Assembly: GCA_030648955.1 (NCBI GenBank)
Contig: JAUSHB010000004.1
Coordinates: 1-60,898, forward strand
From: a bacterium
GTDB lineage: Bacteria > Patescibacteriota > Minisyncoccia > Phycocordibacterales > JAUSHB01
Direction: 5' to 3'
DNA length: 60,898 nt
The notes beneath the pieces were generated by a model, which did no database searches, was not told where the DNA came from, and was given only the letters and a program-made list of their open reading frames with translations. This document shows positions 4,449-30,431 of the stretch, piece by piece (the stretch's first letter is position 1; each line of letters begins with the position of its first letter). The position numbers were made by a program, and so were the translations under genes.

Positions 4449-5171
4449 TTGAAAATCGTGAAATATAACCAGAAAAAAACTTTTTTCAATAATGAACGCG
4501 AGCGGGGGTTTATCCCATACGAGAGAACGCAATTTGACACTCAATCAGTGAAAAAAAACTTCAGGAGAAAAATAACTGACTCTCGTACGGGATTTACTCT
4601 CGTTGAACTCATTGTTTCGATGTCACTGTTTATTGTTGTTGTTTTTATTACCACCTCCGCATTTCTTACCCTTGCTGACTTGAGCAAGAAAGCCAGTGCA
4701 ACCAGAATCGCCATTGATAATTTGAGCGTTGCGGTTGAAGACATGGCGCGAAAATTGAGGACGGGATACTATTATCGATGTGCGGGCGAGGATGCATACG
4801 CAGATTTGGCCATACCGCCTGTCCCGCGTGATTGTTCGTCATCCACCTCGCTTGATAATTCATCCATATCATTTCAATGGAGTGAGACAAGTGCTCTTGC
4901 TGCATATTGGTTGGTAGTGGATCCAGGTAGTGGTAGGGGGCGAATAATGTTCGGTGATGCTAGTGGTGTCGGAGGGCTCTCCTGGTCAGATTATCTGACT
5001 TCTCCCGAAATCAATATCACTAATCTTAAATTTTACGTCATAGGTGCCGAAGGAGTAGGACTGGAACAGCCCCGTGTTAATATTGTAGTGCAGGGAATTG
5101 CGGGCATGGATGTTAAAACCCAATCAAATTTCACCATCTATACATCGGTGACACAACGGTCTCCAAAATAA
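4449..5171 (+). CDS. Minor pilin (PilW-like) with elongated leader peptide
   Basis: TG|FTLVELIVSMSLF at 4590; leader contains an earlier RG-FI motif at 4506. Confidence 0.82.
   Translation: MKIVKYNQKKTFFNNERERGFIPYERTQFDTQSVKKNFRRKITDSRTGFTLVELIVSMSLFIVVVFITTSAFLTLADLSKKASATRIAIDNLSVAVEDMARKLRTGYYYRCAGEDAYADLAIPPVPRDCSSSTSLDNSSISFQWSETSALAAYWLVVDPGSGRGRIMFGDASGVGGLSWSDYLTSPEINITNLKFYVIGAEGVGLEQPRVNIVVQGIAGMDVKTQSNFTIYTSVTQRSPK
4512..4593. mobile_element. Small inverted-repeat element inside prepilin leader
   Basis: atcccatacgagag / ctctcgtacgggat (14 bp, 1 mismatch); GF codons repeated 84 nt apart. Confidence 0.65.
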
Positions 5172-26527: not shown

Positions 26528-27294
26528 ATGAAAATAATTACTCTCAATACATGGGGAGGACGGGCAGGAAAGAAAAAACTCCTTTCGTTTTTTAAAAAGT
26601 ATAACGATACAACTGATATATTTTGCCTTCAGGAAATATGGGCTGCGCCTTACGAACATTTAGATGGGCATATGGCTGGCGGCAGGGCAATGAATCACTC
26701 AGAGATTATGGTGTATGGCATGCAAGAAATATCTAGAACATTGCCTGAATATGCAGCATATTTTCGTCCTCATTATTTAGATAACTACGGTCTTATGTTG
26801 CTTGTGAAAAAAAATTATTAGTGACCGAAGAGGGGGAGGTTTTTGTGTATAAACATAAGGGGTATATTCCCGAAGGAGACATTGGTAATCATGCTCGCAA
26901 TATTCAGTACGTTACCATCCAGACAAGTAATGGACCACTAACGGTGGTTAATTTTCATGGACTATGGAATGGGAAGGGAAAAACAGATACGGAAGACAGA
27001 ATAAATCAATCAAAAAATATTTTGGAATTTACTAAAAATCTCCAAGGAGAACATGTCTTATGCGGTGATTTTAATCTTTTGCCCGATACTGAAAGTATTA
27101 CCATTCTTGAAAATGCGGGTCTTCAAAATTTAATTAAACGGTTTGGTGTTACTTCGACAAGAACATCACACTACACTAAACCTGATAAATATGCCGATTA
27201 TGTATTTATCACGAATGAAATAAAAGTAAAAGATTTTAAAGTGCTTCCCGAAGAAGTATCAGATCACCATGCTCTTTATCTTAAAATAGAGTAG
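26528..27294 (+). pseudogene. Endonuclease/exonuclease/phosphatase (EEP) gene split by a 1-nt frameshift
   Basis: TLNTW...CLQE in ORF1 (26528-26821); GDFN and DYVF...SDH in ORF2 (26821-27294); break at the A8 run near 26807. Confidence 0.8.
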
Positions 27295-27327
27295 TGTTTT
27301 AAGAGTGCTGCTGTTAACGATTTTTTC

Positions 27328-27364
27328 ACACACTATCCCCTGCGACAAATCCTGTGGTCCAGCA
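27328..27364. repeat. 37-bp direct repeat of flavoprotein gene 3' end
   Basis: acacactatcccctgcgacaaatcctgtggtccagca identical to 28037-28073; degenerate similarity continues ~30 bp. Confidence 0.9.
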
Positions 27365-27415
27365 AGCTCTCGATAATAGCCGCCTCTTGGGCGGTTGGTA
27401 TGGTAAAATAAATTC

Positions 27416-27943
27416 ATGATTCAAAAAGGAAATAACAATGCTTACATAGATGGTAATAATTTATATCGCGGAGTAAGTAATTCCGGTTGGAAGATCGATT
27501 TTGTCAGATTCAGAAAGTGGCTTGAGGATAAGCACGGAGTAATTCGAGCTTACTATTTTATCGGGTTGATTCCCAAGGAAAAAGATATGTATGAGGCGCT
27601 GCAGAAAGCAGGCTTCACATTGATTTTTAAAGAAGTGGTTTATGACGGAGATGGTAAGCCAAAGGGTAATTGCGATGCCGATTTGGTTTTACAGGCAACC
27701 AGAGATGTTTATGAAAATTCTTGCGAAAAATTAGTATTAGTTACTAGCGACGGAGACTACTCTAGTTTGGTAAAATTTTTGCAAGAAAAAAATAAATTAA
27801 AAATTATACTTTCCCCCAGCGTTCAAAAAAGATGTTCAATTTTATTGAAAAGAACTAACGCGCCGATTACGTATTTAGATGAAGTAAAAGGCAAAATTTC
27901 TCTGCAACCTAAAGAAAAAGCCCCCATTAAGGACAAGCCTTAA
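27416..27943 (+). CDS. NYN (LabA/DUF88, PIN-like) domain protein
   Basis: YIDGNNL, KGNCDADL, LVTSDGDY acidic motifs. Confidence 0.9.
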   Translation: MIQKGNNNAYIDGNNLYRGVSNSGWKIDFVRFRKWLEDKHGVIRAYYFIGLIPKEKDMYEALQKAGFTLIFKEVVYDGDGKPKGNCDADLVLQATRDVYENSCEKLVLVTSDGDYSSLVKFLQEKNKLKIILSPSVQKRCSILLKRTNAPITYLDEVKGKISLQPKEKAPIKDKP

Positions 27944-28034
27944 CAGGGTCTTTTTCGTAGTGATATGTATATATTAGCAAGTGCTTAACACAAGTCAAGG
28001 CGAGCTGTGGAAAATTTAGCATCATTGCAAAATC

Positions 28035-29384
28035 CTACACACTATCCCCTGCGACAAATCCTGTGGTCCAGCAGAGCTGAAGGGAATAGCCGCCTGATGG
28101 GCGGTTGATATTGAGTATGTCGCCTGCGAAATAAAGGTTTGGGTAGAGGCGCGAGCGCATGGTTTTGGTATCCACTTCGTCAAGCGAAACCCCACCGTCC
28201 GATACCACAGCGCGGTCATATCCCATAAGTCCTTTGATGGCGAGCGGCGCACCTTTCAAGATATGGACGAGGCGCTTACGGTCTTCTTTGGTGATGCTGT
28301 GCGCTTTAATATTTACGTCGGGAAGCCCCCAGAGCATTAAGATGGCAGGGTCGGTGCCGTGAGGGACAAGCGCGTCAAGGAAATTTTTGAGATTTTTGTT
28401 TTTATTGGCATCAATGGTTTTAAGAATACTTCGCTCAAGATCCGCAAAATCAGTATCGGGATACATATCAATTTCTGCGGTCACCTCGCCCCCCTCGAGC
28501 AATTCGCTTACCTGTTTTGCGGAGTTGAGAATAAGTGGACCGGAAAGTCCGAAGTGAGTGAAGAGAAGTTTTCCTTTTTTTGAAAATGCCTTTTTTCTTT
28601 TACCCTGAGCGTCGTCGAACGGGTTGCCGTTTTGAAAAAAAGTTATTTTCATAAATGAAAGTGATATGCCGGAAAGTTTTTTGACCCACGCGTCTTTGAC
28701 CGCAAGAGGTACAATATTTGGGCTTCCAGGGGCGACAGTATGGCCGAGTTCTTTGAGCCATTTAAACCCATCGCCCGTCGAGCCTGTTTCGGGACGGGAA
28801 TATCCGCCCGTTGTGATAATAAAATTATCTGCGGTGTAGCGGGTGGCCTGACTGCGAGCGCCGTGCCTGCGCCGTAGCGCGGCAGGCAGGTTCTCGCTCA
28901 GGCAGGCACCGCAAGAAACAGAAACAATCTTGCCGCCGAGAGCGGTGACTCGTCCGACGGCGGCACCCATCTTTACTGTCACGTGATTATCGGCGATATA
29001 TTGTTTCATAACACGCGACACGTCTGTCGCTTTTTGCGTGTTGGGAAAAGCGCGTTTACGAGCTTCAACCACGAGTGGTAATTCGTGTGATTCAAAAAAT
29101 TCAAATGTATTTTTTACACCGAAGCGTGAAAAAGGGGAGTAGAGATAGTTTTTTGCCGTAGAGTAGTGTTTTAAAAATTCATGGACGTCGTATTCGGCGT
29201 TGGTGATATTGCACCTGCCACCGCCCGTCATATCGAGTTTTTTCCCAAGCGTTTTATTTTTTTCAAGAAGAAGAACGGACTTGCCGTGCTCTCCTGCATG
29301 CCCCGCCGCCATCATACCCGCCGGACCTCCGCCGATGACAATAACATCAAAATGAGTTTTTTCCACCTTTTTCATACTGGGCAT
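28035..29384 (-). CDS. HI0933/YhiN-family NAD(P)/FAD-dependent flavoprotein
   Basis: GGGPAG, GGGRCNITN, TGSTGDG, LFTHFGLSGP, GGYSLQ; two palindromic inserts. Confidence 0.92.
   Translation of the reverse strand: MPSMKKVEKTHFDVIVIGGGPAGMMAAGHAGEHGKSVLLLEKNKTLGKKLDMTGGGRCNITNAEYDVHEFLKHYSTAKNYLYSPFSRFGVKNTFEFFESHELPLVVEARKRAFPNTQKATDVSRVMKQYIADNHVTVKMGAAVGRVTALGGKIVSVSCGACLSENLPAALRRRHGARSQATRYTADNFIITTGGYSRPETGSTGDGFKWLKELGHTVAPGSPNIVPLAVKDAWVKKLSGISLSFMKITFFQNGNPFDDAQGKRKKAFSKKGKLLFTHFGLSGPLILNSAKQVSELLEGGEVTAEIDMYPDTDFADLERSILKTIDANKNKNLKNFLDALVPHGTDPAILMLWGLPDVNIKAHSITKEDRKRLVHILKGAPLAIKGLMGYDRAVVSDGGVSLDEVDTKTMRSRLYPNLYFAGDILNINRPSGGYSLQLCWTTGFVAGDSV
28601..28624. repeat. In-frame cccNttcgacNNgctcaggg-type palindromic insert
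   Basis: Coding strand cccgttcgacgacgctcagggta, encodes PFDDAQG. Confidence 0.6.
28847..28906. repeat. Nested 30+30 bp in-frame palindromic insert
   Basis: cctgactgcgagcg-[ccgtgcctgcgccgtagcgcggcaggcagg]-ttctcgctcaggcagg. Confidence 0.85.
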
Positions 29385-29963: not shown

Positions 29964-30431
29964 ATGCAGATTAAAGAGCTTGGGCATGTTGTACTCTACG
30001 TAACCAACCTTGAAACGGTCACAAATTTTTATCGTGACGTGCTCGGATTCCGTGAAGTTGATCGCAATGATGGTTTTGCCGTTTTTTCCTCGGGACGTAC
30101 ACATCACGAGCTTCTTTTAATTCAAGTCGGCGGCACTCCGCGCCCGCCTGAGCGAGTTCGCTCGCAGTCAGGGAAAAAGGGAGTAGAGCCGGGGTTGTAT
30201 CATATCGGTTTTAAAGTTGCAGACACCGACCAAGAATTAAAAGAAATTTACCGGCATCTAAAAAAACACCACGTAACGATCATTGGCACGGGAGATCATA
30301 CCGTGACACACAGTATTTATATTCTTGATCCCGATGGGAATGAACTTGAGTTATATGCCGACGTTTCCGATGTCTGGAAAAAAGATCCGAAATCAATCAT
30401 GTCGCTTACCAAACCACTTAACCTTGATTAA
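29964..30431 (+). CDS. VOC/glyoxalase family protein
   Basis: LGHVVLYV, FYRDVLGF, LYHIGF, SIYILDPDGNELEL; start moved to ATG 29964 behind TGtTAAAAT. Confidence 0.9.
   Translation: MQIKELGHVVLYVTNLETVTNFYRDVLGFREVDRNDGFAVFSSGRTHHELLLIQVGGTPRPPERVRSQSGKKGVEPGLYHIGFKVADTDQELKEIYRHLKKHHVTIIGTGDHTVTHSIYILDPDGNELELYADVSDVWKKDPKSIMSLTKPLNLD
30143..30172. repeat. In-frame 30-bp palindromic insert
   Basis: cccgcctgagcgagttcgctcgcagtcagg; reverse complement matches the outer element at 28847-28906. Confidence 0.85.

What the first reader, a model, noticed from the sequence alone, without database searches (positions are those of the whole stretch)
27326..28110. NYN nuclease gene as an integrase-less cassette between duplicated 3' ends of a protein gene
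The last 37 bp of the HI0933/YhiN gene (28037-28073) recur exactly at 27328-27364. About 30 further bp are degenerate (NRPSGGYSLQLCW to NRPRGGYYRE, frameshifted). Between them is a single antisense NYN/PIN-like gene whose TGgTAAAAT promoter abuts the duplicate and whose stop sits in a hairpin (aaaaagccc...gggtcttttt). It resembles attL/attR at a gene end with no recombinase, or homology-facilitated capture via DNA uptake.
Basis: partly seen in the sequence, partly recalled or inferred. Interest (0 to 1): 0.62.

Follow-up and report, generated by a model that had tools for sequence, protein, structure and literature searches.

The report
Mobile NYN nuclease cassette, duplicated gene end
A small self-contained nuclease gene, paired with a predicted antisense RNA, was inserted at the end of a flavoprotein gene in an ultra-small groundwater bacterium and left a second copy of that gene's last 75 bases; the same scar flanks this cassette in many other such bacteria and points to insertion by ordinary homologous recombination, without a dedicated recombinase.

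Summary
The last 37 nt of yhiN (28037-28073) recur exactly at 27328-27364. A further 38 nt follow at about 76% identity with a 1-nt deletion. One NYN (PF01936) gene lies between the copies.

The closest relatives (83-93% DNA identity) have a single yhiN end and no copy of this NYN gene. Their stop codon and downstream flank resemble copy A, so copy A is the displaced native end.

The NYN gene moves horizontally. It shares 83-89% protein identity with genes in distant CPR lineages, always as a single gene between unrelated housekeeping genes.

The conserved unit is the ORF, a two-way terminator hairpin and a near-consensus promoter on the opposite strand (66 of 83 tails), often with a DnaA box. 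This predicts a roughly 57-nt antisense RNA and resembles a type I toxin-antitoxin pair.

Flanking direct repeats of neighbouring gene ends occur at 17 of 76 other NYN loci, against 14 of 315 control ORFs. They are independent events, 18-91 nt long. The cassette's 5' end is ragged. The repeat often ends exactly at a start or stop codon, and the two copies look like alleles.

I favour recombinase-free, homology-driven capture (single crossover or one-sided homology). An autonomous element that makes long target duplications is not excluded.

The parts
26528..27294 (+). Endonuclease/exonuclease/phosphatase (EEP) gene, split by a frameshift at the A8 run around 26810-26821. It is the accessory left-hand neighbour.
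   Evidence: Both halves match PF03372. Homologues occur in only 3 of 60 same-order genomes and are not next to yhiN there. It is absent between yhiN and ABC-F in relatives L081, L083 and L174.
27326..27401 (-). Copy A, the displaced 3' end of yhiN. It consists of stop codon TGA (27326-27328), an identical core (27328-27364) and a diverged, frameshifted arm (27365-27401).
   Evidence: The stop codon and the 8 nt to its left resemble the yhiN end and flank of close relatives L175, L179 and L176, so this is the native end.
27401..27409 (+). Extended -10 element TGGTAAAAT of the NYN gene. It lies 6 nt before the ATG, so the mRNA is leaderless or nearly so. A possible 3-nt microhomology (TAT) marks the junction with copy A.
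   Evidence: The motif is conserved in the closest NYN loci L065 and L077. The transcription start is inferred, not shown.
27416..27943 (+). NYN (LabA/DUF88-type, PIN-like) nuclease gene, 175 aa.
   Evidence: PF01936 E 5e-16. The nearest solved structure is 2QIP, of unknown function. The motifs IDGxN, KGNCDxD and SDGD are conserved in 120 relatives. Relatives at 83-89% identity occur in distant CPR lineages.
27915..27955 (.). Two-way terminator hairpin. It encodes the last residues of NYN and contains the stop codon.
   Evidence: It is more stable on the antisense strand in 64 of 83 tails (p = 5e-8). Compensatory changes are seen.
27908..27964 (-). Predicted antisense RNA of about 57 nt, complementary to the 3' end of the NYN mRNA. 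The ends are inferred.
   Evidence: Inferred from the promoter position and the hairpin followed by a U-run. No transcript data. No Rfam match.
27971..27998 (-). Antisense promoter: -35 TTGACT (27993-27998), 16-nt spacer, TGn-extended -10 TAATAT (27971-27976).
   Evidence: Present at a constant position in 66 of 83 distinct NYN tails, against 21 on the sense strand and 8.5 in shuffles. Also present in the genome's own distant paralogues.
28006..28014 (+). DnaA-box-like motif TGTGGAAAA, one mismatch from TGTGGATAA, just upstream of the antisense -35.
   Evidence: 27 of 83 tails have a box with at most one mismatch, against 4.1 in shuffles. The boxes cluster 55-64 nt after the stop codon.
27999..28034 (.). 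Spacer between the conserved tail and the yhiN stop codon. It probably came in with the cassette.
   Evidence: It is not similar to the flank of any relative's yhiN. It was not found joined to a yhiN end in 400 same-order genomes.
28035..28111 (-). Copy B, the functional 3' end of yhiN with stop codon TAG.
   Evidence: It is continuous with the 449-aa ORF. Its proximal part matches the consensus of relatives.
28035..29384 (-). yhiN / HI0933-like FAD flavoprotein gene, the insertion target.
   Evidence: PF03486 and PF22780; TIGR00275.

Best explanation
The segment is the scar of a real insertion. A module of about 635 bp (27402-28036) sits where relatives have only the end of yhiN. The module holds a leaderless NYN nuclease gene, a two-way terminator, a conserved strong promoter reading back into the gene's 3' end, and a DnaA-box-like site.

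I think it arrived on foreign DNA that also carried a yhiN-type gene end, and that the host's own homologous recombination integrated it. There are two possible routes. One is a single (Campbell-type) crossover between the chromosome's yhiN end and a circularised fragment, or a circle excised from an earlier copy. The other is a staggered double crossover with a donor that already had the repeat-NYN-repeat structure. The crossover fell within the 37 identical bases.

This leaves the native end (copy A, with its native stop TGA and flank) displaced next to the NYN promoter. yhiN stays intact and ends with the incoming stop codon TAG and spacer. No dedicated recombinase is involved.

The module itself probably persists as a selfish or defensive unit that works like a type I toxin-antitoxin pair: a nuclease held in check by a roughly 57-nt antisense RNA.

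Shown: the repeat, the gene content, the absence from relatives, the horizontal spread, the conserved antisense promoter, and the recurrence of such scars. Inferred: the recombination route, the existence of the RNA, and the toxicity.
For: 1. Insertion. Relatives with 83-93% DNA identity (L081, L174, L176, L179) have one yhiN end and no copy of this NYN gene (L175 adds only the gene end and a 23-nt flank). Their stop codon and flank match copy A, not copy B.

2. Mobility. NYN shares 83-89% aa identity with genes in Doudna-, Taga- and Giovannonibacteria MAGs. yhiN is at most 61% identical across 60 same-order genomes. The NYN gene sits as a single gene between KhpA and trmD, thrS and dnaE, and next to dnaX.

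3. The scar is general. 17 of 76 NYN loci have flanking direct repeats, against 14 of 315 control ORFs (Fisher p = 4e-6). The loci share only NYN and its tail, so they are independent events.

4. Homology rather than staggered cuts. The repeat ends at or within a few nt of a start or stop codon in the window, L113, L135 and L136 (L120 begins at a putative ATG), and 1-13 nt upstream of the start in L097 and L146. The extra copies in L113 and L136 keep their reading frame, and L136 keeps its own stop, as alleles would. The window's repeat is a mosaic, 37/37 then 29/38 (p = 0.002).

5. No defined ends. The gap between repeat and ATG ranges from 3 to 170 nt. In L146 the NYN ORF is fused to the duplicated start of the target gene.

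6. No transposition bursts. NYN copies within one genome are at most 82% identical at the DNA level.

7. Host machinery. RecA and ComEC are present, and there is only one tyrosine recombinase.

8. Laboratory precedent. A single crossover of re-circularised linear DNA duplicates the homologous segment (PMC3240628).

9. Antisense RNA.
Against: No donor-type junction (spacer joined to a yhiN end without copy A) was found in 400 same-order genomes. No exact empty site (EEP next to yhiN) exists in the data, because the whole yhiN/ABC-F interval varies between relatives. Copy A's arm is frameshifted and non-conservative, so it either decayed after insertion or arrived as an already dead arm. A plain allelic origin does not predict that. 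Several loci have 100% identical repeats (L120 at 63 nt, L091 at 34 nt), which fit a fresh target duplication equally well. The microhomology at the left junction is only 3 nt. Circular DNA does not survive natural transformation intact, so the transfer step between cells is unclear. Most NYN loci (59 of 76) show no repeat. Reads were not available. The antisense RNA and any toxicity are untested.
Confidence: 0.55

Rival explanations
1. The NYN-plus-RNA unit is an autonomous mobile element. Its PIN-like nuclease, or an unknown partner, cuts the two target strands tens of bases apart. The unit is inserted and gap filling creates long target-site duplications of variable length.
For: Repeats of 18-91 nt flank the unit at many unrelated sites. 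Some are 100% identical (L120, L091, L142). The 3' tail is conserved. The unit always carries a nuclease with intact acidic residues. Earlier notes of this scan raise the same idea, but these are leads only.
Against: The left end is ragged and sometimes lies inside the ORF. There are no terminal repeats. The repeat ends at or close to a gene boundary in most of the nine cases examined (four clear: window, L113, L135, L136), and a rough estimate treating five as exact gives about 4e-4 under random staggered cuts. Diverged copies keep their reading frame like alleles. No near-identical copies occur within a genome. A gene-free hairpin element carries the same kind of repeat at the same site in L091, so the nuclease is not needed.
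Confidence: 0.15
2. The repeats are a site-specific attL/attR pair. The cassette is a non-autonomous integrative element mobilised by a tyrosine or serine recombinase encoded elsewhere.
For: The geometry is classical: a gene 3' end is duplicated, an identical core is followed by a diverged arm, and the gene is restored by the incoming copy. The same window holds gene-free cassettes behind tRNA genes with duplicated 3' ends (earlier notes).
Against: The genome has only one tyrosine recombinase, probably Xer-type. The repeats at different loci share no core sequence. The cassette's left boundary varies by more than 150 nt. The repeats include 5' ends, 3' ends and operon junctions.
Confidence: 0.08
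3. The structure arose by a replication error in the host. A fork or repair synthesis switched template by microhomology, copied the NYN unit from other DNA, and returned 75 nt behind its departure point.
For: This would explain variable repeat lengths, ragged ends and short junction microhomology (TAT at 27399-27401, and TTGTCA in L146).
Against: It predicts identical repeat copies at birth and no tie to gene boundaries. It does not explain the incoming stop codon and spacer next to copy B. It needs the source copy in the same cell, yet the genome has no second copy of this unit.
Confidence: 0.1
4. The duplication is an assembly artefact that joins two strains through the shared 37-mer.
For: The contig comes from a metagenome. 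Reads could not be examined. One related contig, L175, is clearly chimeric.
Against: Copy A's arm (27365-27401) is a unique sequence, continuous with both the core and the NYN promoter. The same architecture, with diverged repeat copies, recurs in MAGs from many laboratories and assemblers.
Confidence: 0.03

Closest known systems
Single-crossover (Campbell-type) integration of re-circularised linear DNA, and homology-facilitated illegitimate recombination (HFIR) (PMC3240628)
   Same: Foreign DNA is integrated using homology on one side only. The single-crossover route duplicates the homologous segment on both sides of the insert (109-950 bp in the laboratory). The junctions are illegitimate, with little or no homology. 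No dedicated recombinase is needed.
   Different: These are laboratory products in E. coli and competent model bacteria. Here the footprints are natural, with homology of only 18-91 nt, and they recur around one gene family in CPR bacteria. HFIR proper gives a deletion, not a duplication.
Integrative elements in the 3' ends of tRNA or protein genes (tyrosine-integrase attL/attR) and their integrase-less derivatives (from my own knowledge)
   Same: The gene end is duplicated, the gene is restored by the incoming copy, and an identical core is followed by a diverged arm.
   Different: There is no integrase, no conserved att core across loci, and a ragged cassette end. The cargo is a single 0.6-kb module.
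Type I toxin-antitoxin loci with convergent, 3'-overlapping antisense RNA, such as B. subtilis txpA/RatA and bsrG/SR4 (my own knowledge; overview in PMC8594479, listed but not read)
   Same: A protein gene and a small RNA are transcribed towards each other, overlap at their 3' ends and share a two-way terminator. The modules are compact, mobile and multi-copy, with diverged variants in one genome.
   Different: The protein is a 175-aa NYN nuclease, not a small membrane peptide. The predicted RNA is only about 57 nt. A DnaA box lies upstream of its promoter. Toxicity and the RNA itself are untested.
HEC-09, an NYN/MARF1-like candidate defence gene (bioRxiv 10.1101/2024.01.29.577857)
   Same: A stand-alone bacterial NYN-domain protein with conserved aspartates, found in variable and defence regions.
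   Different: The sequence match is very weak (E 9e-5 over 18 residues). HEC-09 has an extra N-terminal domain and gave no protection in the tests reported. No antisense RNA is described for it.
Free-standing homing endonuclease genes of phages (my own knowledge)
   Same: A single nuclease gene wedged between conserved housekeeping genes and spread horizontally.
   Different: NYN is not a known homing-endonuclease fold. Homing leaves no duplication of the flank. No target cleavage is known here.
Insertion sequences with target-site duplications (my own knowledge)
   Same: A single-gene unit flanked by direct repeats of target DNA.
   Different: IS duplications are short and of fixed length, the ends are defined inverted repeats, and copies within a genome are near-identical. 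None of these applies here.

Membership tests
NYN domain (PF01936, LabA/DUF88 type) | Match to the Pfam model above its gathering score | tested here: met
   60 bits against a cut-off of 24.2, E 4.8e-16, residues 10-133.
NYN domain (PF01936, LabA/DUF88 type) | Conserved acidic residues of the PIN-like active site | tested here: met
   IDGxN (D12), KGNCDxD (D87, D89) and SDGD (D112, D114) are invariant or nearly so in 120 relatives. Activity was not tested.
Type I toxin-antitoxin system | An antisense RNA gene overlapping the toxin mRNA | tested here: inconclusive
   A consensus promoter lies on the opposite strand in 66 of 83 tails, against 8.5 in shuffles. The hairpin favours the antisense strand in 64 of 83 tails. 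There are no transcript data.
Type I toxin-antitoxin system | The protein is toxic and is neutralised by the RNA | not testable with these tools
   This needs expression with and without the antisense promoter.
Type I toxin-antitoxin system | The toxin is a small hydrophobic peptide (the usual case) | tested here: not met
   The protein is a 175-aa soluble nuclease domain.
Integrase-mediated integrative element (attL/attR) | Direct repeats at a gene end flank the element | tested here: met
Integrase-mediated integrative element (attL/attR) | A recombinase gene in the element or available in trans | tested here: not met
   There is none within the cassette. The genome has one tyrosine recombinase. 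Serine recombinases were not searched.
Integrase-mediated integrative element (attL/attR) | The same core site in related elements | tested here: not met
   The repeats differ at every locus, and only NYN and its tail are shared.
Homology-driven capture (single crossover / HFIR) | The repeat is bounded by the limit of homology on one side and by an illegitimate junction on the other | tested here: met
   The boundary lies at or within a few nt of a start or stop codon in the window, L113, L135 and L136 (L120 at a putative ATG). The inner junction is ragged, with 3-6 nt of microhomology.
Homology-driven capture (single crossover / HFIR) | The two copies derive from different alleles (donor and recipient) | tested here: inconclusive
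   The diverged copies in L113 and L136 stay in frame, and the window's two copies have different stop codons and flanks. However, several repeats are 100% identical and copy A's arm is frameshifted.
Homology-driven capture (single crossover / HFIR) | The host has RecA and DNA-uptake genes | tested here: met
   RecA is at C15 and ComEC at C6.
Transposon / insertion sequence | Defined termini, a fixed-length target duplication, and near-identical copies within a genome | tested here: not met
   The gap to the ATG is 3-170 nt, the repeats are 18-91 nt, and copies within a genome are at most 82% identical.
Integron gene cassette | An attC site and an intI integrase | tested here: not met
   The repeats share no structure, and the only tyrosine recombinase is not adjacent. 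attC models were not run.

The most novel reading that the evidence does not exclude
The NYN nuclease and its small antisense RNA form an autonomous mobile element of a new class in CPR bacteria. It would have no conventional transposase or integrase. The PIN-like nuclease would open target DNA at gene ends with widely staggered cuts, leaving target duplications of 20-90 nt.
Probability: 0.12. Interest if true: 0.9.

Novelty: new variant of a known kind. Interest (0 to 1): 0.6.

Why it matters
CPR/Patescibacteria have tiny genomes, few classical mobile elements and no genetic system, so how they gain genes is largely unknown. These scars would be natural footprints of gene gain through DNA uptake and short-homology recombination, a route so far documented mainly in laboratory crosses. 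A gene end as short as about 20-40 identical bases can apparently serve as a landing pad without damaging the gene. Separately, I found no published description of the NYN-plus-antisense-promoter-plus-DnaA-box module. If it is a nuclease toxin controlled by an antisense RNA, it would widen type I toxin-antitoxin systems both in the type of toxin and in the bacteria that carry them. It would also link a selfish module to the replication initiator.

Tried and rejected
- My first two sets of NYN loci showed no flanking repeats: 21 from same-order genomes and 11 from metagenome contigs. The pattern appeared only in the 76 genome-contig loci, so it affects a minority.
- The yhiN-end remnant in G022, and the similar one in L170, is not a second case of duplication. 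It is only 80% like G022's own yhiN end and looks like a relic of a lost gene.
- L175's apparent truncated yhiN is an assembly chimera with high-GC foreign DNA.
- No donor-type junction (spacer joined to a yhiN end) exists in 400 same-order genomes.
- Rfam has no family for the tail. PADLOC and NCBIfam give only weak NYN hits.
- Literature searches for NYN with Patescibacteria, mobile elements, or toxin-antitoxin/antisense RNA found nothing relevant.
- Most control-ORF repeats in the genome are palindromic hairpins or a local REP-like element on contig C12, not gene-end duplications.
- I did not predict a structure for NYN, because it would not separate the mechanisms.
Full report
**Observation.** The repeat finder reports an exact 37-nt direct repeat, 27328-27364 = 28037-28073. 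It also reports a second block, 27375-27401 versus 28085-28111, at 89% with the register shifted by one base. Aligned, this is one repeat of 74/75 nt: 37/37 identical, then 38 nt with 9 substitutions and a 1-nt deletion. The unevenness is significant (Fisher p = 0.002).

Copy B is the end of a 449-aa HI0933/YhiN-type flavoprotein gene on the minus strand (PF03486, PF22780, TIGR00275). Copy A reads HTNRPRGGYYRE, shifts frame, continues as CWTTGFVAGDSV and ends in its own stop codon TGA, where copy B has TAG. Between them lies one ORF on the plus strand (27416-27943) with an NYN domain at 60 bits against a cut-off of 24.

**Is it an insertion?** The GTDB set holds no close relative; all 60 neighbours belong to other families and their yhiN is at most 61% identical. 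The protein database and a metagenome scan with a degenerate yhiN-end pattern gave closer ones. L081 has 83-88% DNA identity over yhiN and the ABC-F gene. L174, L175, L176 and L179 have 87-93%. None carries this NYN gene, and each has a single yhiN end.

In relatives, yhiN and ABC-F are neighbours, separated by short and variable content: a 104-aa ORF, small membrane proteins, a GNAT gene, and in L176 a distant NYN-like gene at 27% identity. The interval is therefore a hotspot of gene flux. The frameshifted EEP gene of the window is itself accessory.

In L175 and L179 the gene ends ...GTGTGA followed by an A-rich flank, as copy A does. BLAST alignments of three relatives run through copy A into 27320-27322 but stop at 28036/28037 for copy B. 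Copy A with its left flank is therefore the native end. The TAG stop, the 36-nt spacer and the NYN unit are what came in.

**The cargo.** More than 100 proteins are 70-89% identical to this NYN, and they come from MAGs labelled Doudna-, Taga-, Giovannoni-, Komeili- and Azambacteria, among others. This is far closer than housekeeping genes are across these lineages. In each case the gene stands alone between unrelated conserved genes: KhpA|NYN|trmD, thrS|NYN|dnaE and dnaX|NYN. Genomes often hold several copies, some with internal stops. Copies within one genome are at most 82% identical in DNA and mostly unalignable, so they are not the product of recent transposition.

DNA alignments show what travels: the ORF starting a few bases before the ATG, a hairpin that contains the stop codon, and about 55 further bases. 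Read on the opposite strand, that tail is TTGACA, 16 nt, TGn-TATAAT. It is present at a constant position in 66 of 83 distinct tails, against 21 on the sense strand and 8.5 in shuffles. The hairpin is more stable on the antisense strand in 64 of 83 tails (p = 5e-8), because G-U pairs there become C-A mismatches on the sense strand, and it shows compensatory changes. A DnaA box with at most one mismatch lies just beyond the -35 in 27 of 83 tails, against 4.1 in shuffles.

The genome's own distant NYN paralogues on contigs C17 and C12 keep the same layout. I infer a roughly 57-nt antisense RNA covering the 3' end of the NYN mRNA. This geometry matches type I toxin-antitoxin pairs with 3' overlap. 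There are no transcript data and no Rfam family. The protein keeps the acidic motifs of the fold. Its nearest solved relative, 2QIP, has no known function.

**Is the scar general?** I compared 800 nt upstream with 800 nt downstream of NYN at 76 loci from species-representative genomes. Direct repeats at E below 1e-5 appear at 17 loci. The rate is 14 of 315 for size-matched ORFs in the window's own genome (Fisher p = 4e-6), and most of those control hits are palindromes or a local repeat. The NYN-flanking repeats are 18-91 nt long and 605-815 nt apart, and they differ at each locus. Only NYN and its tail are shared between loci, so these are independent events.

The repeats are pieces of the neighbouring genes:
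- the first 25 codons of the downstream gene (L113);
- the last codons of a convergent downstream gene, as in the window (L135, L136);
- the stop/start junction of two adjacent genes (L146);
- the end of the upstream gene (L108);
- a 5' untranslated region (L091, L086).

In L091 and L088 the same repeat occurs three times, with a gene-free hairpin element or an ArsR-like gene as a second cassette. The process therefore does not need the nuclease.

**Mechanism.** Four features argue against a transposase- or integrase-type event.
1. The cassette's 5' boundary is ragged, from 3 to 170 nt before the ATG. In L146 it lies inside the ORF, so NYN starts with the duplicated first codons of the target gene.
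2. There is no shared core in the repeats and no recombinase. The genome has one tyrosine recombinase, plus RecA and ComEC.
3. The repeat edge facing the cassette's 3' tail lies at or within a few nt of a start or stop codon in four clear cases of nine (window, L113, L135, L136), with L120 at a putative ATG and L097 and L146 1-13 nt upstream. This is where homology between two genomes would end. Treating five of the nine as exact, I estimate roughly 4e-4 under randomly placed staggered cuts.
4. Where the copies have diverged they stay in frame, and L136 keeps its own stop, as two alleles would.

The window adds the different stop codons and flanks of the two copies, and a perfectly identical block next to a strongly diverged arm. 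That is expected if recombination needs a short run of identity.

A laboratory precedent exists. When linear DNA with one homologous end enters E. coli, most products carry a duplication of the homologous segment, formed by re-circularisation and a single crossover. True HFIR instead gives a deletion (PMC3240628). I therefore favour homology-driven, recombinase-free capture. The route would be a single crossover of a circular intermediate (for instance one excised by recombination between an earlier pair of repeats), or a staggered double crossover with a donor that already had the structure.

Some observations weigh against this. No donor junction was found. Some repeats are 100% identical. 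Copy A's arm is frameshifted. The junction microhomology is only 3 nt. It is unclear how a circle would pass between cells.

**Rivals.** An autonomous element that makes long target duplications remains possible (about 0.15). It would be the most novel outcome. A recombinase acting in trans, a template-switch error and an assembly artefact are less likely, for the reasons given in their entries.

**Earlier notes of this scan.** I consulted these after reaching the above. They describe the same NYN-plus-small-RNA cassette with flanking duplications in many other genomes, and gene-free cassettes with duplicated tRNA ends in this same window. I treat them as leads. I re-derived the recurrence and the antisense RNA here on independent loci. 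I weigh the mechanism differently from their boldest readings.

**Verdict.** The module and its scars appear undescribed in the literature I could search. The closest named relative is HEC-09, an untested-positive NYN defence candidate. I rate it a new variant of known kinds: a selfish toxin-antitoxin-like module, inserted by short-homology recombination.

Noticed in passing
window 26800-26825: The EEP (PF03372) gene is split into two frames at a run of eight A's. This is a pseudogene, a sequencing error or a slippage site. Homologues in relatives are single ORFs of 249-288 aa.
   Followed up: partly
window 28840-28953: yhiN carries about 60-70 extra GC-rich bases, in frame, that relative L081 lacks (alignment gap). 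Parts of it recur inverted in the glyoxalase gene at 30142-30172.
   Followed up: partly
G000 contig C12 17838-24381: Six copies of a REP-like element of about 50 nt (ACCCCCAGAATACCAAAAATCCCCCGATTTTTCAATGGGTTTGTGGGGATAT) separate consecutive genes. These include a methyltransferase, a prolyl-oligopeptidase-like gene and a 207-aa NYN-like gene.
   Followed up: partly
G000 C9 6821-7526; C6 92623-93320; C6 140162-140877: Three paralogous genes of about 185 aa each have an N-terminal membrane segment and a WDGxW...FDIP...QKSVF motif that looks Cas2/PaaX-like by eye. Each is bracketed on both sides by a near-perfect palindrome of about 40 nt.
   Followed up: no
L146 2957-3592: The NYN ORF has lost its own start and is fused in frame to a duplicated copy of the first seven codons (MPFKKVE) of the downstream 972-aa gene.
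   Followed up: partly
L091 2952-3996 and L088 2890-4247: Stacked cassettes. The same repeat occurs three times, enclosing NYN and then a second insert: a hairpin-rich gene-free element in L091, and an ArsR-like gene upstream of hsdR in L088.
   Followed up: partly
L151 1419-3507: Three NYN-sized ORFs lie in tandem, and the NYN tail sequence itself forms the repeat. I did not confirm that the first two are NYN genes.
   Followed up: no
L062 (G022 C6) 4768-4833 and L170 1627-1677: A 17-22-codon remnant of a yhiN 3' end sits about 2 kb from the ABC-F gene with no yhiN body. In G022 it lies next to a 166-aa ORF of higher GC. G022's intact yhiN is on another contig and has a different C-terminus.
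   Followed up: partly
L174 2351-3158: In a close relative the ABC-F gene has an internal deletion of about 1 kb. In L179 the gene is missing altogether, so this conserved-looking gene is dispensable in the clade.
   Followed up: no
L175 271-1904: The metagenome contig is a chimera. A CPR yhiN end is joined to high-GC DNA encoding a GlmS-like protein.
   Followed up: yes
L076 4733-5941: In one sample the thrS|NYN locus is followed by a 402-aa ORF with a weak rve (integrase core) hit instead of dnaE. This may be an IS insertion or a rearrangement beside the cassette.
   Followed up: no
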